Below the pieces are notes generated by a model that saw nothing but the letters and a program-made list of their open reading frames with translations, did not search any database and was not told the origin of the DNA. The translations under genes were made by a program, and so were the position numbers. This document shows, in pieces, positions 722 through 51,700 of a stretch of 64,000 bases of DNA. The stretch's first letter is position 1. The number at the start of each line of letters is the position of its first letter. Where the stretch lies: assembly GCF_009914755.1 (NCBI RefSeq), contig NC_060938.1; one strand, 5' to 3'. The DNA is from the human T2T-CHM13v2.0 reference genome, Homo sapiens.

Positions 722-859
722 GCCTGTGGTTCTCATTTCTGTGGTTGGGTGGGGACCGAGTCTCCTGGTCTTGAGCTTCATCCCCCTCCTCGCTGGCCAG
801 GTGAGTGTGAGCATAGTGGTAGCTGAGCCCCGGTCGGTTCTTGTAGCGCTTGCCACAGA
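722..859 (-). CDS. DPF3: DPF3 coding exon (exon 7; remainder of the C2H2 zinc finger), 138 nt, phase 1-1
   Basis: ttttcctctctag|TCTGTGGCAAG...CACAGGC|gtgagt = (I)[45 protein letters not shown](P) (ORF 690..905). Confidence 0.97.
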
Positions 860-15449: not shown

Positions 15450-15531
15450 TTTTTTTTTTTTGAGACTGCGTTTTGCTCTGTCATCCAGGCTGGAGTGCAA
15501 TGGCGCAAGCTCAGCTCACTGCAACCTCTGC
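15450..15531 (-). mobile_element. Alu 3' fragment
   Basis: Poly(T) followed by gagactgcg...caggctggagtgcaatggcgc...cactgcaacctctgc. Confidence 0.85.
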
Positions 15532-17299
15532 TTTGCGTATCTGTAATTCCTGATTATTCTGCAATGAACAAATACTATTTCCATAGAAAAAGTTATTTTA
15601 AAAAAATAATGAAAAGCACCTCTACAATGGTTAATATCTACCCTATTATGGGTCATCTACACAGAAATAGGAATTGTCATGAAGTGTGCATCAAGAAACA
15701 GTTAGTGGAGAGCAAGGTTGTGACTGAATAGAAAATAACTCCAGAGGGTGTGGGTCACAGCCCAGAGAAGGCAGGTGTAGGTTAGAAGGTCAAATGCCAA
15801 GATGCGAGCCCTGGAGGAGAGGAGGCAGAGACAGGAGGGTCTAGGGACAGCAAAGAGAAACTTCACCCTCTCCCCAGCCCTGCCTCTGGCCAGTCCTGCC
15901 GGAACACCTGCAACCTGTGTCCATGACACAATGGCATTTAAATATTTAAACAGACCCAGCTTTGCTGGAACGGCGCACTCAGTCTCCAGGGATCAATCCC
16001 ATGCCACAAGCCCCGCTCCACAAATCAAGTTTCTGGGGGCACCGAGCCTTTCCTCCCCTCCCCGATCCTACCCCCATCCAAGGACCTGCAAGACAACTGA
16101 GTGATGAGCCCAGCTTCCCTTCCGCGACAAAGGCAGTGAGCCTGAAGGCCGCGTTATTGGCTTTTCCACTGCAGCTTGAAGCGAAAAGCACGTGAGCCTT
16201 AAAGAATATGCGCCTTAATGCCCTCAAAAAAATTTTTTTCTTAGCAAAACTGCAAGAGTCATCTAACTCTCCCTGCTGCACTCAGGTAGGGGTAAAACCA
16301 GGGTAGTTTGAAAGAGGTTGAGGTCAAGCAGATTTTCTGGGACTGCCTTGGGCTCAAGCTTTTGTCTGTCCAGTCAGCAGATCCACCCATCCCATCGCAC
16401 CTCTTGGCCTGTGGCACAGTTTCCCGTGGTATTCCCCAATCCACTGCTCCCTTCATGTCCTCCAGACATCTTGCCTCCCTAGTAAAGAGCATCATTGTTA
16501 AGCTGCTGCCTGGGAAGAAAGGCGCCACTGTGTGGGGAAGGAGTGCTGATCAGGGCAGTCCGGAGGCCCAAAGGAGGAGCCATCCCCTCACGGACAAAGG
16601 AGGAAACCAGTGCCATAGCAACTGAGGTGTAGAACCAGGACTAAACGTCCAGCCTGCTCCTCCCATCAGCCTGATACCCTTCTCTCTGAAGTACACCACT
16701 GCCAAGAAACAAGAGACTTTAGAACGGGAAGAGACCCTAGACCCTATTCTGATACTACCCCCACTGGGTGTGGCAACACACTCCCCGACTGGGTTTCTAG
16801 AAGGGAGGCAACAGGGTGAAGCGGCCACACAGCTGAAGACGCACATCTGTAGGGTGGAGGTGGTAGAGAACAGAGACTTTGCTGAGACAGAGGTGGCCTT
16901 GAGAGGGCCCGCTCCTGGTGTGTGACACCTGACGTGACTCAGGAGTGAGTCATGCTTCTAGGAGGGCTTTAGCCATGTCTATTTGCCTTTTGTCACTAAT
17001 CTAGCCTAATGCCGTAGTTGGGGGGCAGTGATTTTAATAGATTTAAATTTAAAAGACTGGAAATCATATAATTCCTTCCATCCTACTTCAATTGTAACTA
17101 CTACCTGACTCCAGCCTGCCCGCCTGATGCCTAGAAATTGCCCATCGACAGCGGCCAGGGCTTCACCTCATAAGTAAGTTGTGCGTTCTCATTAATTAAC
17201 TTTGAAAATGCTTTTTCCGCAGCCTTCAAGAGAATGAAACTCCAGGGTAGGAGAGCATATGTAAGGGGCAGTTAGTATGGAAGATGTCCTAGGGTATGG

Positions 17300-21552: not shown

Positions 21553-21600
21553 TTTATTAAAGTAAGTCATCGTCATAGAAAGATTCATAACTTGCCCTAC
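21553..21600 (-). other. DPF3: Candidate alternative terminal exon of DPF3 (x-RASYESFYDDDLL*) with AATAAA overlapping the stop codon
   Basis: About 40-nt polypyrimidine tract ttccctttaatttcctttccctcttcctctcctgtcctag|GTAGGGCAAGTTATGAATCTTTCTATGACGATGACTTACTTTAATAAA; in frame with the phase-1 donors of exon 6 and of the 42-nt exon. Confidence 0.45.
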
Positions 21601-21670
21601 CTAGGACAGGAGAGGAAGAGGGAAAGGAAATTAAAGGGAAACAAATGAAAAGCCATGGCGAGCCAAGTAC

Positions 21671-21712
21671 CTTTGTCGGAGGGTTTTGAGTTATGCTTTT
21701 GTTTGTAACTCT
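21671..21712 (-). CDS. DPF3: Probable alternative cassette exon of DPF3, 42 nt, phase 1-1 (inserts KSYKQKHNSKPSDK inside the C2H2 finger)
   Basis: ctctatttctttctgtatttcag|AGAGTTACAAACAAAAGCATAACTCAAAACCCTCCGACAAAG|gtactt. In frame, no stop; the peptide resembles the 14-aa alternative exon I recall at the same position in the paralog DPF2 (NSFKQKHTSKAPQR). Confidence 0.8.
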
Positions 21713-22059
21713 CTGAAATACAGAAAGAAATAGAGGATGAATCTTAAAGGAGACAGAGCGCGTGAGAGAGAGAGCCGGAGGAGAGCCACACAGGAGGCAT
21801 GGCAGGAGGTGGGGGTGCAGAACTGAGGGTGGGGGCCACCCCAGCTGGCTTCCCCTCTGCAGAAACCCCCTGGGGCAGCAGAGGCCCAAGGAAGTGGTGA
21901 CTGCGGTGGAGGCGGCAGGCGAGTAAGCTGGGGTGCAGACAGAGGAAGAGGAGAGCACACACTGAGGTTGGCAGGCGGATGGCCAAGGAAGCACAGGGAA
22001 GAGGGGCCCTGGGGGCAGGCGCACAGGGAGGAAGGAAGGTGGGACCGGCCCATACTTAC

Positions 22060-22138: not shown

Positions 22139-24533
22139 CTGGGGAGACATTGGGGTACAGGATGCTTGTTACCATGGTCATCACTACAGCTCCGGAGCAT
22201 GCGCTCTGCGAGCTCCTTACACCGTCTTCATCCCAACTTTTGTGCCAACACCAGTCCCATCTTACAGGGGAGGAAACTGAGGCCCAGAGAGGTCAGGAGA
22301 CATGCCCCCAAATCACTCAGTTGCTCACCTGTATCACCTCATTAAATGTTCACAACGCCAAGAGGTGGTTTCTACTAGGGTCCCCATTTTACAAACCAAA
22401 GGACTGAAGCCATAGAGAGGTTAAGTAGCTTGCCCAAGGTCGTTCGGCTACTCAGGGCAGCTGTACTGAAAAGCCCTCCTCTACCAAATTCCCACACACT
22501 ACCGTGCCACTGAGGCCGCTTCCTCCTGCTCCTTAGCCTCCTAGCTTCACTGACACAGCTGAGGTTGACAACCCCAGGCCCCTCAGCAGACCAGCTGATG
22601 CACGTATCAGGAGCAAGGCCTGACGGGGGCAAGGCTAGGCTTCTGTGTCCATCCCCGCAGTGTCGCAAGAGCCAGACAGTCCTGACATCCAGGCCCAGTG
22701 CACGAGTGTAGATACAGGGGAGCTCCCGCCACCAGCCCATGCTTGGCCTACTCAGTAGGGGTGGGCTTTGGCTAAGGCCTCCCTGTGTGGTCTGCCTTGG
22801 GCCTTCAGCCAGTGACGAAGACCTTGACCCCCATGGTCTCCTGGGCTGGACTTCTGATACCACCACCCTGTGTGAATCTCCCAGGGTGGCGGTGGAATGA
22901 GCTCTACCTTCAAGAATCAAAGAGCCCAGTCAGAGAGGTTGCTGGCAGCTCTGCAGCCCCAGGGCGGTGGTGACAAGAACACAGCGAGGTTTATTTTTAA
23001 ACCTTTGTAAGTCCCACACTGGTCACGTGTATAGCACCCTCGCCTCTCCAGGTCATTCTTTGGTAATGAGTAGCAGTCAACTCCCAACCAAGGAAAGGGC
23101 CTGTCGGGGTCTTTGGGGACAGAGAGGAAGGGGCAGCAGGTGAGGAATAAGACCTGGCAGCAGCCTGGGGTGCAGGGGAAATGGGGCAGCCCCTGGGGCC
23201 TGGCTTGGAAAAGTGGCCATGGGGACTTGATGGTGGAAAGTCCTTGGATACTCTCACACACACACTCACACTCTGTGCACACACACACTCCATGTACACA
23301 CTCACCGGGGACTTCACAGTGGAAAGGCCTGTACCCTAGGCCTGCAACACACCCACTCAGAAAACACACCCACTTCCCAATCAACACCACCTGCCAAGCT
23401 ACCACCTCTGCCACCTCCTCAGCTTGTCTCTCTCCAAAACAAATTCCACTTCCTCCCTCCCTCCCACCAGTCTCCCTCCCCACCCCACCCCTGCAGCGCT
23501 GACAGCCAGCAGCCCTCCTCCCCTCGCCCTCATTACTCAGAGTTGACCCCAAGAAGGATCTGTAGGTGCTGGCAGTCACCCCGGGCACTGACAGGCCTCC
23601 TGCCTGCCCGCACTGCCGAGGGTGGTCACCCTCAGCTGCCCTCCCCCTCCACACCCCTCTGTGAAGCCAGGGACAGCTTGACATGTAGCCTGCAGCCCTG
23701 TCACAGCCGCCTCTGAGCAGGTGAAAGCAAGTCAAGCAGAATGACGAGGCAACAGCAGACTGGGGAAGGGGCTCTGGGAGACTAAAAATACCTCCATGGG
23801 GAAGGGGAGGAGTCGAGCAGAACTGGATGTACGAGGGCTTCTGGGGGAGCTGCCAGCAGGAAAGGGAGGGTGCTGTGGGAGCCAGGTTTTCATCTCCTAC
23901 AGCAGGGCTGACCAGCAGAGTGACTCTGTGCCACACTCGCTTTGCCTCAGTTTCCTCAATTGCAAAATGGGGATCGTGTCTATAGGGCACTTCAGGGGAC
24001 ATGCAAGGGACTCTTCCTGAGGCAGTAGCACTCTTAGGGTCTCTTAGAAGATCTCAGGTTTGGAAACTCAGAATCCTACTTGGCCTTCTCAAATGTCACC
24101 TCCTCAGAGAAGCTCTCCCTGACCAACTTACATCCACTCACACCCTCTCCATTGTTTTCTTTCCCCTCCCATTTCATCATGGCACTGAGCGCTGTCTGGC
24201 ATTAGATTATACCTGTGTTGGTTTACAAGTTGATTTTGTCTCCCCTACATGGAGAGACAAACATGGTGGAGACCATGTTTATTTTGGCCCCCACTAGTCT
24301 CAGAACCTGGCACAGGGCCAGCCACATAAGAAGCACTTAATAAACATTCGCCAAATGGATGAATCAATCAGGCAGGCAGCGAGTCAGTCATCTCTGGTTC
24401 TTCTCCTTCATTCTCTGTATCCAAATGTTATTGCTTCTTCCTCCAAAGGCCATCTAGGCTTTGCATTTCCTTTCCATTGCACACCCTAATCCAGGAGCTC
24501 ATCGACTGACCCCTGAGCTGTTCAAAGAACCCA

Positions 24534-24615
24534 CTAAGGGGGATCTACCTCCACATTGCCCCCCTAGTCCACCCTAACGGGGGATCTACCTCCACACTGC
24601 CCCCCTAGTCCATCC
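24534..24615. repeat. Two-copy tandem duplication, about 41-bp unit
   Basis: ctaa(c)gggggatctacctccaca(t/c)tgcccccctagtcca twice. Confidence 0.9.
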
Positions 24616-25499
24616 CAAGGGACTTTCAGACCATTAGACAAAGGGATGAAAGACAGGAGCCCATGGTCATAGGTTCATGCATTCACACGTTCATTCATTC
24701 ATTGCCATCTACAACCCACTTACACAGCCAGTGGCAACCTAGTGCTGATCCCCTCGGGTTCACCCCATGATTGTGCTCTCCTCTGCCCATGCACATCTGA
24801 TCCAGGCTTTGCCCTTGCTAACCTCCACTCCTCCAAGAATCTTCCTCTTGCCACACTAAGGAGTGAAAAGAGCATCCGCTTAAAGTCAGATAGACACAGG
24901 TTGAAACACCAGCTATGTGTCTTGGGCAAGTTACTTCTCTAACTTTTAGTTTTCTCAACTGTAAAATGAGCACACCAACACCTATATAGCAGAGCTGTTG
25001 AGAGAGTTTGAGCTGAGAGTGTGTGAAAGCACAGGGGACAGCACTAAGTCCACAGGAAGCACTCAACACATCATTTCCCCCCTCCTTGCCTAGGCTGATC
25101 TCTCTCCTCTGAACTCCTGTTGCCTTTGGTTAGTGCACAGTCAGGTGCCTGCTGTTTCTAATGGTATCAAGGGTATTAGCATCTTCTTCCCAGTTTGATT
25201 CGAAGGTCCTTGAGGGCAAAAATGGCATTCTATACTTTATTATGACCCCCTAACACTTAGCACATAGCGTGCAAAGCTCTTTTGCATATAGTAACTCAGT
25301 TAATTCCTACAATACCCCTATGAGTTAGACCAAGCAGTGTTATGATTCCTAGCTGGCCCTTGATGAAGCAGGTTCTCACCTGTCCACAGTCCCAGGGCCA
25401 GCAGAAGGAGCAGGACCTAGGTCTCCAGGCTCTGTTATAGAAAGCTTGGAAGGTGACCAGCCAAAGGAAGCCAATCCTTCTTCCCCAAGAACTGCCCAC

Positions 25500-25975
25500 C
25501 CTACTTCATTCCTCTCTACCAGTATTCCCACACTGCTGGGCCATGGCAGCCATGAGTGTACCACATGGCCCTGTCCCACTGGCCACAGTTGATTGGCTGG
25601 CTCGGGAGTAGTCACCTGATTCAAGCTGGGCCAATCAGATCCTACCTCCAAGGGGTTTGGAATTAGAAAACAGTGACCCTAGCTAGTATAGGCCACTTGA
25701 ACTGAGGGCCCATACATTCAGGAGCCTTATGGGGCCATGTACACATGGAAGCAGGAAGAATGAAGGAGGGAGAAGTAGAGGCCAGAAACCACCTGGGTTC
25801 CTTACTGTTTCCTAATGCTAAGTCCCTGCCATGTTCCTGCTCTTCCTGTGGTTTGGATCTTCAAAGGTTGCTCAAATTTGGGGCAGTGGCCTGGCAGCTT
25901 TTCAAATCCTTCCCATTTTTATTGAAGCTGAAAGACCCTTGACTAGGACAGACTCGGTCCCAAGCAGAGAGCTAG
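25500..25975 (+). mobile_element. MLT1-type (ERVL-MaLR) LTR relic
   Basis: gtcacctgattcaagctgggccaatcag...ccatgtacacatggaagcag MLT1-like text; edges approximate. Confidence 0.55.
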
Positions 25976-25987
25976 ATCTTCTATACC

Positions 25988-26396
25988 AGTTGTTTTCAAA
26001 CAGTGTGGCCCAGGAATCCTGGGGGATCCCTGAGTGTCCTTTCAGGGACTCTGCAGTGTCTGAACTATTTTCATAGGAGTCCTAAAACGTGATCTGCCTT
26101 GTTCACTCTCACGCTCTCACAGGCATCCAGTGGAGTCTTCCAGAGGCGACATGACACGTGACGATGCTGTCACTGTGTGTGTATTCTCTAGTTTAAAATT
26201 TGTTTTATTTTTCTTGTAAATCTTTTTTACTGGGCTACCTCTTAAACCACAATAGGTTCAGAGAGACAACCTTTTTAATTTCTAAAATGGCAAATATCAT
26301 TAGTGGTATGAATATTACTGGTTATAACCTGAATAACAGCCTTTGGGGGCTCTCAGTGTAAGGAATTCCTGAGATCAAAAAAATTGAGAACCACTG
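25988..26396 (+). mobile_element. hAT-Charlie DNA transposon relic
   Basis: cagttgttttcaaa... / ...ttgagaaccactg terminal inverted repeats. Confidence 0.6.
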
Positions 26397-26412
26397 CTCT
26401 ACACCCTTGCTA

Positions 26413-26719
26413 TTTTTTTTTTTTTTTTTTTTTTTGAGACGGAGTCACTCTGTCATGCAGGCTGGAGTGCAGTGGCTCAATCTCGGCTCACTACAACCTC
26501 CGCCTCCGCCTCCCGGGTTCAAGTGATTCTCCGCCTCAGCCCCCTGAGTAGCTGGGATTACAGGTGCATGCCGGCATGCCCAGCTAATTTTTCATATTTT
26601 TAGTAGAGACGGGGTTTCACACTGTTAGCCAGGATGGTCTCAATCTCCTGACCTCGTGATCCACCCGCCTTGGCCTCCCAAAGTGCTGGGATTACAGGTG
26701 TGAGCCACCGTGCCAGGCC
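26413..26719 (-). mobile_element. Alu (Sc-like) inserted into the tail of the adjacent AluJ
   Basis: tgttagccaggatggtctcaatctcctgacctcgtgatcc diagnostic text. Confidence 0.9.
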
Positions 26720-27017
26720 TTTTTTTTTTTTTTTTTTTTTTTGAGATGGGGTCTCACTCTGTCACTAGGGCTGGAGTGCAGTAGCACAATCACAGCTCAC
26801 TGAAGCCTTAACCACTCAGGCTCCAGTGATCCTCCCACCTCAGCCTCCCAAGTAGCTGTAACCAGAGGTGCACACCGCTCTGCCTGGCTAATTTTTTCAG
26901 AGATGAGTTCTCACCATGTTGCCCCCAGGCTGGTCTCAAACTCCTGGGCTCAAACCATCCTCCCACCTCGGCTTCCCAAAGTGCTGGGATTACAGTTGTG
27001 AGCCACCGCACCCAGCC
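26720..27017 (-). mobile_element. Alu (J-like)
   Basis: Dimeric Alu; TSD ctacacccttgctattt flanks the whole two-Alu block. Confidence 0.9.
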
Positions 27018-27268
27018 TACACCCTTGCTATTTAAAGTGTGGTCCTGACACCAGCAGCTCCAGCATCACTTGGGAGCTTATTAAAAAGGCAGGAGCTCAG
27101 CCCCCACCCCATGGACTTACTGCATCAGAATTTGTATTTTAACAAAATCCTCAGGTGCTCCATATGCACATAAAGTTTGAGAGGCACCTGAACACCACAG
27201 TACATAAATAAATACTTCATGATTGATTGATAATTGATTAATTGGTAATACTCACATGGATGACTCAC

Positions 27269-27307
27269 AAGAATCTCATGAATTTTAAAGAGCTTTGACT
27301 TCTTGGG
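27269..27307 (-). CDS. DPF3: Candidate alternative cassette exon of DPF3, 39 nt, phase 0-0 (PKKSKLFKIHEIL)
   Basis: ttgtgtctttggtaacttcag|CCCAAGAAGTCAAAGCTCTTTAAAATTCATGAGATTCTT|gtgagt. Matches the phase-0 intron 5, no stop, apparently non-repetitive sequence. Confidence 0.45.
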
Positions 27308-27865
27308 CTGAAGTTACCAAAGACACAATTATTAATTGTTGGGCTCCCCTCACCACTCAGAGAATACCCATTATCAAAATTCCAAGAGTTATTCCCTTTG
27401 CTTGCCCCCTCCTGATAATATCTAGGCAGTATGAAGCACTCAAAACTTACTGATGAAGAAACTGAGGCCCAGGGTACTTATACAATTTGCCCACCATCAC
27501 AGAGGTTACATAATTCATCCAACGTGTAGTAAGTGGTAGAGCTGGAATTTGAACTTGCAAGGTCTAAGTTCAAATAAAGCAGAGCCTATTCTGTAATCCC
27601 TACCTTAGCCCTGGCCTCCTCAGTGAGCACACAAAGCACCTGGGGGCTTGTCAAAGTGCAGACTCTAATTCTCATTAATCTAGTGTGGAGTCTGGGCTTC
27701 TGCATTCCTAATGAGCTCCCAGATGATATTAATGCCACCATCCAGAGACCACACACAGAGGTGTCAAGACTTAGACTGCCTCTAGGTTCTGACAAGACAA
27801 ATGGGCATAGTTGTTCTCCAGTGCCAGCAGCAGCTGGAATATACCACTTTAAATGGTGGGCAATG

Positions 27866-28008
27866 AGCTGGGTATGGTGGCTCATGCCTGTAATCCCAGC
27901 ACTTTGGGAGACCCGGACAAGAGGATCGCTTGAGGCCAGGAGTTCCAGATCAGCCTGAGCAACAGAGTGAGGCCCCCATCTCTAAAACATAATAATTATA
28001 AAAATAAA
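27866..28008 (+). mobile_element. Alu monomer (FLAM-like)
   Basis: Left-arm Alu only, with A-rich tail. Confidence 0.8.
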
Positions 28009-28469
28009 GCTTGGGCAAAACAGCTGAACTGAGGCTGTGAGTGCAGCAGCTTCACACACCCCAGCACAGGAGGCTTGCCCACAGCCTTCTGGGTCCTTCC
28101 ATGGCTCCGTGCATGGGTAACATGTCCACAGTATCACTGTACAACATGGAACCATTCAGCTGCTGCTTGGCCAGTATCTGGTGGGCCCAGAGCCAGTCTA
28201 GGCTCCATCCAGCCCCCTCACTGTGTTCAGGTGTCTCTCATCTCCCCTACAGCTGAAATACGACTTTTCTTTCTCTTTTCCATCATTCAATCATTCATTC
28301 GACAAGCTAATCATTGGCTATATGCTGGGCCCTGGGCCAGGCATGAACTCAGAGGAGAAAGCACAGACCTGTGTTCAAATCTTAGCCTCTTCCTTACTAG
28401 GCTGAGTGACCTTGAACAAATTGCTTAACCCCCCTGGGAGCAATAGTACCAGCTTGTGGAAATGAAAGA

Positions 28470-28785
28470 AGTTCTGACCAATAGAAATACAATGTGAGCC
28501 ACACTCATCATTTTAAAATTTCCAGCAGCACATTTTTTTTAAAAAAATAGATAGGTGCAATTAATTTTAATAATATATTTTATTTAACAATATATCCAAA
28601 ATATGATAGTTTTATAATTTAATATAAAAATTAAGAATGAGATGTTCTGCATTCCTTTTTCATACTAAGTCTTCAAAATTTCATATTTATTTTATATTTA
28701 CAGCACATTTCCATTAGGACTAGACACATTTTGAGGACTCAGTAGCCACATGTGGCCAGCAGCTGCCATAATGCACAGTGCAGAA
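28470..28785 (+). mobile_element. MER33-type DNA transposon relic
   Basis: ccaatagaaatacaatgtgagccac...cagtagccacatgtggccag...cagtgcag. Confidence 0.7.
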
Positions 28786-30659
28786 ATAGAGATAGGAGTC
28801 TAAAGCACCTGGCACAAAGGCATCACTCTCTATGTGGTAGCTCTTGTTATACAGAGCCCATCACATTGCCTGGTTTACAGGAAGTACACAGTAAATATAC
28901 ATGGTTGCACTGACTGCTGATGTTTTCACAGACACCCAATTCATATCCACTGACTGCAAGCTCAATCTTCTAAATGTAGGTTGGGGAGAGGTGTGAAGAG
29001 GACCATTTCCCACACTTGCGTCAGTTTGGTTGGGGTGAGAGAAGGAAAGGAAGTGGGTCTGGACATGCACAGCTCTTTGGGAGTTCACCAAAGGTCCAGG
29101 AAGTCCAAGCTCGAAAGTCTCCTTTAATAATGGAATTCAATTTTCTTTTTAATACCCTCCCCTCCGTGAATGGGTCTAGGCCAGTTTATCAATGGCTGCA
29201 AAAATCATTAAGTAAAAACTTGATGAGGAACTGTATAAGGGAGAGATCAGGCTGACAACACTCAAATCTACTGATCAATTAAAACACCACCCAAAGCAGA
29301 ACTGGACAGGGTATGCCCCTGATGTGATACGAGAAGAACCTATCACCACCTAGGAAGGATTCTTACCTCCCCACAAGAAATGTTTGTACACACATACACA
29401 AACACACACACACACAAGCACACACCTTGAATCTAAGCAAGTTTCTAATCAAACTACCAGTTTTCAGGAAACACAGAGGATGGAGAAAGACATTAAATAC
29501 CACCCTCCCACCACTTCTAGAATGTGAGAAGTTCCACAAGACAAACAACCCAAATTCTTCAACAAATTAATGGCATGGAGAAAAAAAAATGTGTGTGGTG
29601 GGGTGCAATACAGAAGAGAATACAGAAGAGGTATGCTGTGGAATCCCGGAGACTTCAGTTTCAAACAAACCAACTATAAAATGGCATTTTTTGACAAAAG
29701 GGGAAATGATAAGGGACTAGATAGTAGGTATTATAACTATTATTTTATTGGATATGATAATGATATCTGTTAAAGACACACACTGAGATATGTGTCAGTT
29801 AAATGATAAGATGTCTAGAACTTGTTTTCAAATACTCCAGAAAAAAAATCAAACAAACACAAATCAACAAAAAGTAGGAGAAAAGAAGAGACGAGCCAAG
29901 ATAGCCAAAATCTTGCTAAGTGATGAGGCTGGTCCCAGCTGTACCAGAAGTGCACCATCAGAGAGCTGCCCGCCCAGCCCCTGCACAGGCTGCACAGCCC
30001 CACATGCGACAGGCTGGAGCATCTCAGCTCAGTGTGTGCCGCGCTGGCCGATGTGCAGCGGCCGCCTGGGAACTTGCTTCTAATATAGTATAAAGCCCCG
30101 CCCCAGAGCTCCTAAAGCAGAATTTCTGAGTGGGGTCCTGGGAATCTGCATTCAATAAGCTCTCTCAGTGATCCTAATGTCTGCTGAGGCATGAGAACCA
30201 CAAGAGTGGAGAGCCCTGCCATGGTTATCATTGGCAGCAAACCCACAGAATGCCTGGGACTAAGTGCTTATCCGTGGGAGGGGTAAGAGTCCCGCCTAGA
30301 GCCTGAAGGGGTGAGATCCTCAAGCCTGAGAGTCCATTTTCCAGGTGGACAGCAGCAGTTTACTTCTGGAGGTCCCTCTCCACCTGGTTATTGTCACATG
30401 CCCTTGCAGACCCCAGACGGCCACCACAGAAAGCCCCTTCGGGCGTGAACTCTAGATTCAACCTGAATGCCTGGAAGTGCCTGACCAGTCTCTTGTTTTT
30501 ATTCCTTCCACCTGGGTTTTTTCCCCTCTGCCCTTCCCCAGGCTCTGGCTTTTTCCTTGTCCCATCCAAGGACCCCTGGGATGGTCTCAAGCCTCCAGAG
30601 CTCATGCCAAACCCACTGGGAGCCACCAGCTGCAGCCCCCTGCTACCCCGGCAAACTTC

Positions 30660-30896
30660 TTTTTTTTTTTATAGTCATGATTATGGTTTATTTATTTTTT
30701 TTATTATACTTTAAGTTTTAGGGTACATGTGCACAATGTACGGGTTAGTTACATATGCATACATGTGCCATGTTGGTGTGCTGCACCTATTAACTCGTAA
30801 TTTAATATTAGGTATATCTCCTAATGCTATCCCTCCCCCCAGCCCCTATCTCACAACAGGCCCCAGTGTGTGATGTTCCCCTTCCTGTGACCATGT
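30660..30896 (-). mobile_element. Short L1PA 3' end with a double poly(A) tail
   Basis: ttattatactttaagttttagggtacatgtgcac...cttcctgtgaccatgt; two T-tracts separated by 16 unique nt. Confidence 0.88.
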
Positions 30897-31286
30897 ACCC
30901 CAAAAGCAGGTACCCTGACTCTGTCATTCTGGCACAGCACCAGGGACAAGGCAGGAAATGTCCAGCCTTCTTTAGTAACCAAGCAGTGGTGACAACAGGC
31001 ACATTCTCCTTATCTTCCACCCTCACCCTGATCCCATCCTTCAGCCCTCCCCAGACCTCACCACCCACTCAGGGTACCCCCTCTGCCTCCTCTCCTCCCT
31101 CTTGCCAGCTCTGAACTCTTCCAGGCTACGACCTGGGATCAGAGCTGTTCTGGAGTTTTCTCCTTTGAGCGTTCTCCATGTAAGACCATGGCCATGATTT
31201 CCATCTAGCTGCAGTGGAGATCAATCGTTGGCCGGGCACCCCAGCCTCCCTCATCTCTTTCCTCGCTCATGTCATCCCCAACTTAC

Positions 31287-48720: not shown

Positions 48721-51700
48721 TGAATAGACTCTAAGGCAGAATGAGTTGCCATTCTGGGCCAGATGGCACACACTTTTCCAGCGGGGCAGCGAGCTGTCTG
48801 CAGCAAATTCATTTTCGGTGTTGGGGACGGGAACTGTGTTGCAGAGACCCACCCAGCAGTGCAGTGTGGAGGTAGAATCACAGTGCCTCCTCACACTTGC
48901 CAAGTCCTCCACCCTCCATCCCACACGCCTCTCAGAATAACCCCGCAAAATCACCATGACCCACATCTCACAGATGAAGGACTGAGGCAGGAGTGGTTAG
49001 GAAATTGTCCAAAATCACACAGCCAGTGGCTGGAGGGATCTAGACTTGAACCTAGGCCTGTGATCCCTGTTTGGTGCCTGTCCTCCTGCAGAGCAAGGAT
49101 ATTTGGACAGGGAAGGCCCCTACAACCCAAAACCAAACAGCCAAGATGGCAACACTTGGGCCCCCCAGGCCAGGCTGGGAACCACAAGGGAAGCCAAGCT
49201 CAGCCACCCCAGGCCTCTCCTCTCTGGCGGAGCCTCCCTCATCTGTGAAGCAGAGATGATGAGAGCTAAGTCATGTTCTCCAAGGTTAAGATCAAACACC
49301 AGACATGTCTCTTTCCCTCATCCCTTTAGAAATCTTTACTGCCCATGTACTATGTGCCAAGCCTCATGCTGGGTGCTAGGGATACAGATGAAGAAACAGA
49401 TGGGCCCTCGCCGTCAAGTTGTCCACCTCCCAGTGGGCAGAGGTACAGGTGAGCAGGCAATGGCATAACTGGGTGATCCCTCAGACTCACAACTCATGCT
49501 CTACACGTGGCTCTGCCAGGTCCCACTGCAAAACATGACCGTGGACACTCAGCAGCAGCCGTGCCACTGTCCTGCCCACTGCCTGCTGCCAGCCCACCTC
49601 CTCGGCCAGCCCAAGCTCCCAGAGCCCTGCAGAACACCAGCAGAGCTGGGGAACACGAGCAGAGCTGAAGTCACACAGACTTCGTCCCCCAGTCCCTGCT
49701 CCTTTCCTGAGACGGACAGGAAGGCAAAAGGAGCAGGTCCCTTCCAGCACGTAATAGCCACAGCCTGAGTGGGGGCTGCACGCCCTGCCCACCTCGCTCC
49801 AGCTCCCCTTCTCATGAGGCCAACCAGAGCTGACGAAGCTGCCGGTGCAGGCCTCCAGATGGATGGCTGCAGGCTCTGACACTGCAGGAAAGAGATAAAT
49901 GACTGGTCATTTCCCCCTGATGCACTTGAAGGCATCCATTCTCCCAGCCGTACCAAGCTCAGGCAACCCCCACCGCCCAGAGACAGATAAGCACTGACAG
50001 ATGGGGGTGGGAGCCGGAGCGTCCTTCCCCCTCGGAAGGACACAGCCAGACTCCTCTGCAGGCCGGGAGAAGGTCGCGTTGTCCATTGGCTCACACCTGG
50101 CTCGAGGCTCCGCGGGTCCCTTCCTCCATCTCCCCGTTCTTGCCCACCCCCGCCTGGCTCATCCATCTGAAGAGCACACGGCAGAGGGGGAAGGCTGGGG
50201 GCAGAAGGAGCCGCTGACAGGCTCATCAATCTCAGGTTACATGCTTGGCACCTCGGCGTTCCTTAAGTTGTTCCCGGATTGGGAGGGTGTCGCAGGAGCC
50301 AGGGGCACTGTCTTGAGGAGAAGAGAAATCGCACCGAACATCAGAGAGCAAATGGTGGAGAAGCCTGGAGACTATTAAAATGTGGGCCATGTACAAAAGC
50401 AGTAGGGAACTAATTAAGATGCAGGATTTTCAAAAGCTGGGGAAGTTGGCCGCAGCCTGCTCCCATCTGTAGAGTTCTGGCAGTTCAGCGCAGCAGGGAC
50501 AGCACCCTGGGTGGGTGAAGTAGGCCTCACCACCCCTGCTCGAGCTGGCCAGACTCAAGTCCCTCCGCCTGGACCACCCCTTTGGGAGATACCCCTCTGC
50601 AGGTCCCTACGACTTGCTTGTTGGCCAGCCTGTGGCCCTCTCTGCTTTGGGACACCTTAAGCCACTGTCGTCTTCGGGGTGCATGCCCTCTTGTCTGAGT
50701 TTCCCCCAACGACATGGGATGGGGGCGATCATCCTGGTCGTTCATCCCCAGTCATTGAAGGACTGCCAAAAACAGAAAAAATACAAGAGAAAGAACACTA
50801 TCCCTGGCTGCCCTCCCTCCCATCACCCTCGGAATTCGGCAAGGGTGGCAAAGAGCCACCCTGCTCCCCAAGAGTCCTGGAGCAGAAGGGATCGACAAGG
50901 CCTCAGGTGCATTCCAGGTACAGGAGGAGCGTCAACTGTAAAGCCCTTTTCATCTGCGGGTCCAGGATAAGTGAGTGTGTCGGGCCTTCAAGCAACATGG
51001 CAGCAGCTCCAGCAGGCTCCCCATAGGGAGCATCACCAGGATCCTGGCATCACCAGGATCCCCTGGGAAATTAGCTTCCTAATTCTGTGCCGCAGTTTCC
51101 CAACCTCTAAAATGAAGATAATATCTGTCCTAGACCATGGGGACCGAAGGTCTGGGGTTGAAAGATGCTAAATTGATCTAAGCAGACTATCTGGGCATTT
51201 ACTTCAAGGGGACACAAGTAAAAGTTTGTTCCCAGCCTTTGTCTTTTCTTCATTCAAAAAAAAAAAAAAAGGAAAAGAAAAAGAAAGAAAGTGAAGTTAA
51301 AGGCCTCTTTTTTAATCAGCTGGCTTTTGCCCAACATCTGCTGTGCTCCCAGGCCTTCTGGTGGATATTTACTCTCCACCTTTCTCTTCTGCCAGCTCCA
51401 CTCCCCCTTCACAAGGACAGAGCCCTTTTCCTGGGGAGATGGTCCGGGGGAGGCCCCTTGCTGGCACCAGGCCCCTGCCCAAGTCTTTGTGTTGTAGAAT
51501 TGTGATGTCTACATCATGAAACACCTTGCATTCGCCTCTGTGGCCAAGTGCAAGCTGCAGAGAACACTGAACTCAATTGTCAGTCACTGGGGAGAAATAA
51601 TGTTGTGTGTGTTGTCCTTCAGATGCCCAGGCAAGTAGGAGGTTGCAAGATGTTTATTCAAGACTGACTAGAGGGGTGACATTTGGCAGGAGAAACACAT

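What the first reader, a model, noticed from the sequence alone, without database searches (positions are those of the whole stretch)
21671..21712. 42-nt cassette exon that splits the Cys-x2-Cys knuckle of the C2H2 zinc finger
Seen: a clean AG/GT-bounded, phase-matched 42-nt exon converts YVCD-ICGKRY into YVCD-KSYKQKHNSKPSDK-VCGKRY, putting 16 residues between the two zinc-ligating Cys. It is flanked by CU-rich tracts upstream (ctctctctctcacgcgctctgtctcc...ctctatttctttctg) and downstream. From recollection (to be checked), the paralog DPF2 has a same-position, same-length exon (NSFKQKHTSKAPQR) that is tissue-regulated and PTBP1-repressed. Inference: an ancestral d4-family zinc-finger splicing switch survives in DPF3, although absent from the canonical 378-aa protein, and is likely PTBP-repressed and included in neurons or muscle.
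Basis: partly seen in the sequence, partly recalled or inferred. Interest (0 to 1): 0.72.

Follow-up and report, generated by a model that had tools for sequence, protein, structure and literature searches.

The report
Hidden zinc-finger-splitting exon in human DPF3
The human DPF3 gene still holds an intact, unannotated copy of an ancient 42-base exon that interrupts the zinc finger in its sister gene DPF2 and in DPF3 gene models of fish, frogs, birds and a marsupial, but in people it is likely kept mostly switched off.

Summary
21712-21671 (minus strand) is an AG/GT-bounded, phase-matched 42-nt segment that would widen the first Cys-x2-Cys of the DPF3 C2H2 finger to Cys-x16-Cys. It is not chance. 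It is the only match elsewhere in the human genome to the DPF2 exon 7 region (73% over 115 nt, E 1.3e-8; exon 32/42 nt, acceptor 17/18 nt). Its peptide is 12/14 identical to inserts in bird and shark DPF3 models and 11/14 to Tasmanian devil. The DPF3 insert is already tabulated for lamprey, zebrafish, medaka and frog, but not for mouse or human. I found no evidence of inclusion in any placental mammal: no placental DPF3 protein with the insert among 117 hits, and no 42-nt Dpf3 event in mouse cortex or retina tables that list the Dpf2 exon. Three unnamed mammal-like genomic copies keep the frame but change residues that never vary that way elsewhere. Best reading: a real ancestral cassette exon, intact but likely strongly repressed (upstream CU tract, weak donor) and under loosened constraint in placentals. 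Substantial neuronal or muscle inclusion in humans is untested and less likely (about 0.3).

The parts
21671..21712 (-). 42-nt phase 1-1 cassette exon, homologue of DPF2 exon 7; not in the RefSeq transcript shown
   Evidence: (32/42 nt to human DPF2 exon 7)
21713..21730 (-). 3' splice site and polypyrimidine tract; 17 of 18 nt identical to the DPF2 exon 7 acceptor. The exon begins AGAG, so two weaker AGs follow 2 and 4 nt downstream
   Evidence: 17/20 is the best of 4,678 minus-strand AGs in the window (next 14/20)
21737..21741 (-). candidate branch point (YTNAY match, A 26 nt upstream of the exon); a second match lies at 21766-21762
   Evidence: motif scan only; inferred
21746..21786 (-). CU-rich tract with a (CT)5 repeat at 21774-21765; predicted PTBP silencer
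   Evidence: (11 PTB tetramers in -100..-40, DPF2 has 8); Ser-Leu repeats at the same place in 2 of 3 unnamed genomic ORFs suggest the repeat is shared
21665..21670 (-). 5' splice site GTACTT after AAG; lacks the consensus +4 and +5 bases, so predicted weak
   Evidence: 6/9 consensus matches, within the 5-8 range of the annotated exons; no MaxEnt score could be run
21603..21652 (-). downstream pyrimidine tract, alignable to the tract after DPF2 exon 7
   Evidence: (24 of 1000 shuffles reach the score); 28/32 aa identity of this flank read in a shifted frame in ORF P0248
22060..22138 (-). annotated upstream exon (exon 6), ends after the first Cys of the finger
   Evidence: annotation
722..859 (-). 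annotated downstream exon, holds the second Cys and both His of the finger
   Evidence: annotation; (matches the DPF2 C2H2 structure 3IUF, E 1.8e-14)

Best explanation
This is the human DPF3 copy of the vertebrate d4-family 42-nt cassette exon, intact in frame and splice sites but likely repressed and included only rarely in people. Shown: sequence, phase, homology to DPF2 exon 7, and insert-bearing DPF3 models in non-placental vertebrates. Inferred: the upstream CU tract binds PTBP1/2 and, with a weak donor, keeps the exon skipped. Inferred from DPF2: when it is included, the 14 basic residues break the canonical finger, the protein still enters BAF, and the complex is retargeted. Inferred: in placentals DPF2 carries most of this switch, and the DPF3 copy is a minor isoform under partial, loosened constraint.
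For: Homology. Constraint has not been absent for long: the 13 internal residues differ from the shark insert P0124 at 1 position; a neutral simulation gives 1 change or fewer with probability 0.011 at 0.25 and 0.002 at 0.35 substitutions per site (that these distances span the time since the marsupial split is recalled, not measured). Low use: no placental DPF3 with the insert among 117 hits of an insert-centred search that returned 8 bird and 2 marsupial ones. Table 3 of PMC11678306 lists no insert isoform for mouse or human DPF3, and its text says only Dpf2 makes one in mice. The mouse cortex table of 2,883 known and novel regulated exons has the Dpf2 exon (PSI 0.20 rising to about 0.8) and no Dpf3 row. 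A mouse retina table with novel-exon discovery (18,203 rows held) has the Dpf2 42-nt exon at PSI about 0.8 and one Dpf3 event of 1,295 nt, with the two genes similarly expressed (log2 CPM 5.6 and 5.3). Loosened constraint: three unnamed genomic ORFs keep the frame but carry K6M, K10N and D13N, each seen in 0 of 104 insert-bearing proteins; in P0248 the exon (10/13) is no better kept than the intron flank (28/32).
Against: All evidence of low use is absence. The protein database is clustered at 90%, so a 14-aa insert can hide behind a skipping representative: in the exon-8 search 0 of 36 reptile and bird hits had the insert although birds make it, so the 0 of 58 placental count there means little. 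Known placental DPF2-L was also not retrieved, so that search is not exhaustive. The retina file was cut when stored, and the cortex table lists only exons that change in development. No human RNA data were examined. The species of the three ORFs are unknown and only their protein sequence was seen. At 0.07-0.15 substitutions per site the neutral model is not rejected (0.43 and 0.084), so recent complete death also fits.
Confidence: 0.55

Rival explanations
1. The exon is a fully working, tissue-regulated cassette in humans, substantially included in some neurons, muscle or a developmental window, and annotation has missed it.
For: Intact splice sites and frame; acceptor 17/18 identical to that of DPF2 exon 7; same flanking architecture; 12/14 peptide identity to birds and shark; a marsupial model includes it; the DPF2 exon is near 100% included in brain and muscle; only 1 of 7 shared-residue codons differs synonymously from DPF2 against 14 of 28 in the constitutive finger codons (p 0.20, not significant).
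Against: No placental model or table row with the exon; substitutions at near-invariant lysines in mammal-like copies; no TGCATG (RBFOX) element from 347 nt before to 400 nt after the exon, whereas human DPF2 has one 226 nt downstream (weak, since the mouse Dpf2 exon is not scored as an Rbfox target).
Confidence: 0.3
2. The exon is dead in placentals or primates: a fossil that has not yet decayed, or is preserved for another reason such as an overlapping regulatory element.
For: No inclusion evidence; exon no better conserved than its flank in P0248; drift at invariant residues; neutral decay over short distances fits. DPF1 has lost the exon: its intron shows no such peptide.
Against: Both splice sites, frame and length are intact in human, and the frame is kept in 3 of 3 DPF3-type ORFs found (these were found because they stayed similar). 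Conservation with DPF2 covers the exon and its near flanks and stops further out (361 and 100 of 1000 shuffles). The RefSeq enhancers listed for the window (15501-16001, 49737-50694) do not overlap.
Confidence: 0.14
3. A chance AG...GT stretch that happens to resemble the DPF2 exon.
For: Short AG/GT-bounded frames are common in a 21-kb intron (general knowledge).
Against: 43.3 bits against 10.8 next best; the only other genomic match is DPF2 exon 7 at E 1.3e-8; same intron, phase and length.
Confidence: 0.01

Closest known systems
DPF2 (BAF45d) exon 7, the PTBP1-repressed switch from DPF2-S to DPF2-L (bioRxiv 10.1101/2023.09.10.556946)
   Same: Same intron and phase, 42 nt, 14 aa between the two Cys; 32/42 nt identical; near-identical acceptor; CU-rich flanks; donor off consensus.
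   Different: DPF2 exon 7 is annotated, near 100% included in mouse brain and muscle, and functionally tested. For the DPF3 copy no inclusion, PTBP binding or function is shown. The intron after it is 20.8 kb against about 1 kb in DPF2.
Insert ('Ins') isoforms of dpf3 in lamprey, zebrafish (NP_001104639.1), medaka and frog (PMC11678306, Table 3), and RefSeq/UniRef models of shark, lungfish, bird and Tasmanian devil DPF3
   Same: Orthologous exon; 11-12 of 14 residues identical for bird, shark and marsupial; 7-9 for most teleosts.
   Different: That table lists no such isoform for lizard, chicken, mouse or human DPF3. The human copy starts with Lys, not Asn (101 of 105 have Asn), a change shared by the three unnamed ORFs.

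Membership tests
d4-family zinc-finger-splitting cassette exon | 42 nt, phase 1-1, in the intron between the two Cys codons of the C2H2 finger | tested here: met
d4-family zinc-finger-splitting cassette exon | peptide and DNA homology to known inserts | tested here: met
   12/14 aa to birds and shark, 32/42 nt to DPF2
d4-family zinc-finger-splitting cassette exon | inclusion removes the canonical C2H2 signature | tested here: met
   Pfam zf-C2H2 matches 2 of 2 marsupial skip isoforms (17.9 and 17.8 bits, below the curated cut-off of 25.2) and 0 of 2 insert isoforms; the human isoform itself was not scanned
d4-family zinc-finger-splitting cassette exon | spliced into mRNA in this species | not testable with these tools
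   no human RNA data; indirect searches found no placental inclusion
d4-family zinc-finger-splitting cassette exon | purifying selection on the peptide in placental mammals | tested here: inconclusive
   frame kept in 3 of 3 unnamed ORFs, 2-3 changes each, some at near-invariant sites
PTBP-repressed exon | CU-rich elements at the 3' splice site and downstream | tested here: inconclusive
   upstream met (top 0.4%), downstream not distinctive (12.8%)
PTBP-repressed exon | PTBP crosslinking and rise in inclusion after knockdown | not testable with these tools
   shown in print for mouse Dpf2 only

The most novel reading that the evidence does not exclude
Human DPF3 makes an undescribed, PTBP-controlled long isoform (DPF3-L, +14 aa, broken C2H2 finger) in specific neurons, photoreceptors or muscle. 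Both DPF2 and DPF3 would then switch fingers together as PTBP1 falls, and the published view that only DPF2 does so in mammals would be wrong.
Probability: 0.3. Interest if true: 0.62.

Novelty: new member of a known kind. Interest (0 to 1): 0.42.

Why it matters
DPF3 steers BAF remodelling in heart, muscle, brown fat and neurons, and the same exon in DPF2 retargets BAF during neuronal differentiation. If the human exon is used, there is an unlisted DPF3 isoform, missing from standard annotation and variant interpretation, that could also be unmasked by PTBP loss or by intronic variants. If it is mostly silent, it is a clean case of an exon as old as vertebrates being lost in one paralog (DPF1), kept in another (DPF2) and fading in the third, testable with existing junction data.

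Tried and rejected
AlphaFold2 models of marsupial insert and skip isoforms were uninformative: mean pLDDT 50 and 38, and the intact-finger control did not fold, so no fold search was run and nothing is claimed about the insert's structure. The search of shorter proteins gave 9 hits among 15 candidates, none a placental DPF3 with the insert. The synonymous-site test against DPF2 was not significant (p 0.20). Supplements of PMC8187152 and PMC6952364 held neither DPF2 nor DPF3, so they say nothing. The PhyloCSF supplements (PMC6886504) had no DPF3; the full ranking file was cut when stored and was searched with recalled hg38 coordinate prefixes, so this is no test. The 16,036-row mouse table without Dpf3 covers EST/mRNA-known exons only. 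No retrocopy holding the exon was found. P0235 passed the 14-residue pattern but is DPF1 intron read-through and was dropped (105 to 104). Earlier findings of the scan could not be consulted, and one paper on PTBP and CU repeats was not held.

Full report
Observation. On the minus strand the annotated DPF3 exon 22138-22060 ends one base into a codon after the first Cys of the C2H2 finger, and exon 859-722 supplies the second Cys and both His. The latter matches the solved DPF2 finger 3IUF at E 1.8e-14. The segment 21712-21671 lies 347 nt into the intron, is 42 nt long, and is bounded by tttcag| and AAG|gtactt. Its 13 internal codons read SYKQKHNSKPSDK. Spliced in, it adds 14 residues and makes the Cys spacing 16. 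A profile built from 45 distinct non-human inserts scores it 43.3 bits; the next best of 74,062 stop-free 13-mers in the window is 10.8.

Homology to DPF2 exon 7. I fetched the human DPF2 and DPF1 introns. DPF2 exon 7 is 32/42 nt identical, and the last 18 nt of its acceptor are 17/18 identical; no other of 4,678 minus-strand AGs in the window exceeds 14/20. A genome-wide DNA search with 21600-21790 returns only itself and the DPF2 exon 7 region (73% over 115 nt, E 1.3e-8). Similarity in the 100 nt on each side is modestly above shuffles (12 and 24 of 1000) and disappears further out (361 and 100 of 1000). The short DPF1 intron shows no such peptide, and the chr6 DPF2 retrocopy is the skipped form.

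Distribution. An insert-centred search with a marsupial isoform gave 117 hits among 445 candidates; 105 fit the 14-residue pattern and 104 are true inserts. They come from hagfish, sharks and rays, lungfish, teleosts, amphibians, birds and Tasmanian devil, plus DPF2 of fish, reptiles and birds. The human peptide is 12/14 identical to 7 of 8 bird DPF3 inserts and to a shark insert, and 11/14 to the devil. Only two hits carried placental names, neither with the insert. In the exon-8 search (120 of 811 hits listed) 52 of 58 named placental proteins skip, 6 are other models and none includes; but 0 of 36 reptile and bird hits included either, so that count is weak (I grouped the ids by hand from the printed names). 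Clustering at 90% can hide the insert, and placental DPF2-L was also missed.

What is in print. bioRxiv 10.1101/2023.09.10.556946 (passages; supplements closed) shows that mouse Dpf2 exon 7 inserts 14 aa between the Cys, is near 100% included in brain and muscle, is repressed by PTBP1 through flanking CU elements and a weak donor, leaves BAF composition similar and changes its targets. Its four mentions of DPF3 are introductory. PMC11678306 (passages, Table 3, supplement passages; figure S5D not seen) lists insert isoforms of dpf3 for lamprey, zebrafish, medaka and frog, not for lizard, chicken, mouse or human, and says only Dpf2 makes one in mice. PMC11701043 (passages) adds nothing on DPF3. 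Nine searches listed no paper on a mammalian DPF3 copy; most hits were seen as listings only, and most subscription papers are not held.

Is it used in placentals? PMC5989265 (passages and supplement searches; files 14 and 15 not searched, one dataset file nearly empty) has the Dpf2 exon as a Ptbp-repressed exon rising from PSI 0.20 to about 0.8 in mouse cortex, and no Dpf3 row among 16,036 known exons or 2,883 regulated known and novel exons. PMC4991804 (passages and supplement search) has, in mouse retina with novel-exon discovery, the Dpf2 42-nt exon and a single Dpf3 event of 1,295 nt among 18,203 rows held, with the two genes similarly expressed; the file was cut when stored. These are absences in mouse, not measurements in human.

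Constraint. A search of 1.84 billion representatives with the unspliced frame 21743-21600 gave 5 hits: three genomic ORFs that cover the DPF3 exon and its flanks, one that covers a DPF2-type exon, and one repeat artefact. The three keep the frame and share the human first-residue change; that they are placental mammals is my inference. They differ from human at 3, 2 and 3 of 13 residues, including K6M, K10N and D13N, each absent from all 104 inserts. Birds differ at one position in 1 of 8. In P0248 the intron flank (28/32) is kept better than the exon (10/13). Human differs from the shark insert at 1 of 13 internal residues; neutral decay gives that with probability 0.002-0.011 at 0.25-0.35 substitutions per site, and 0.08-0.43 at 0.07-0.15 (the mapping of distances to dates is recalled). 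So constraint lasted well past the marsupial split but may since have loosened.

Mechanism. Shown: intact splice signals, an upstream CU tract as dense as that of DPF2 (16 tetramers, top 0.4% of the window), a less distinctive downstream tract, and loss of the Pfam C2H2 match in 2 of 2 marsupial insert isoforms. Inferred: PTBP1/2 binds the tract across the branch point region and, with a donor lacking the +4 and +5 consensus bases and a 20.8-kb downstream intron, keeps the exon skipped. Inferred from DPF2: inclusion would retarget BAF without changing its assembly. Structure prediction failed its control.

Verdict. The feature is real and is the human orthologue of a known vertebrate exon. Odds: intact but rarely included 0.55; substantially included in some human cell type 0.30; dead fossil 0.14; chance 0.01. 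It is a new member of a known kind, unannotated in the RefSeq table given and at odds with a published statement about mouse only if inclusion is shown. One junction query would settle it. Interest 0.42.

Noticed in passing
G000:C6:132378769-132379892 (L001, L002, L010): A processed pseudogene of DPF2 with stops; it derives from the exon-7-skipped mRNA.
   Followed up: partly
L012 (DPF1 intron between the two Cys codons, about 200 nt): DPF1 shows no trace of the 42-nt exon's peptide, so it appears lost in that paralog.
   Followed up: partly
window 22139-31286 (intron before exon 6): Bird DPF3 models carry a further 13-residue exon before exon 6; it was not among the 15 best non-exonic tblastn matches in the human window.
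   Followed up: partly
window 21712-21709: The exon starts AGAG, giving tandem AGs 2 and 4 nt after the acceptor; DPF2 starts ATAG. Their use would shift the frame.
   Followed up: no
window 21710-21690: After the first Cys, the insert's start resembles the residues that follow the second Cys (aromatic residue then Lys at the same spacing), which hints at an origin by partial duplication of the next exon. Seen by eye only.
   Followed up: no
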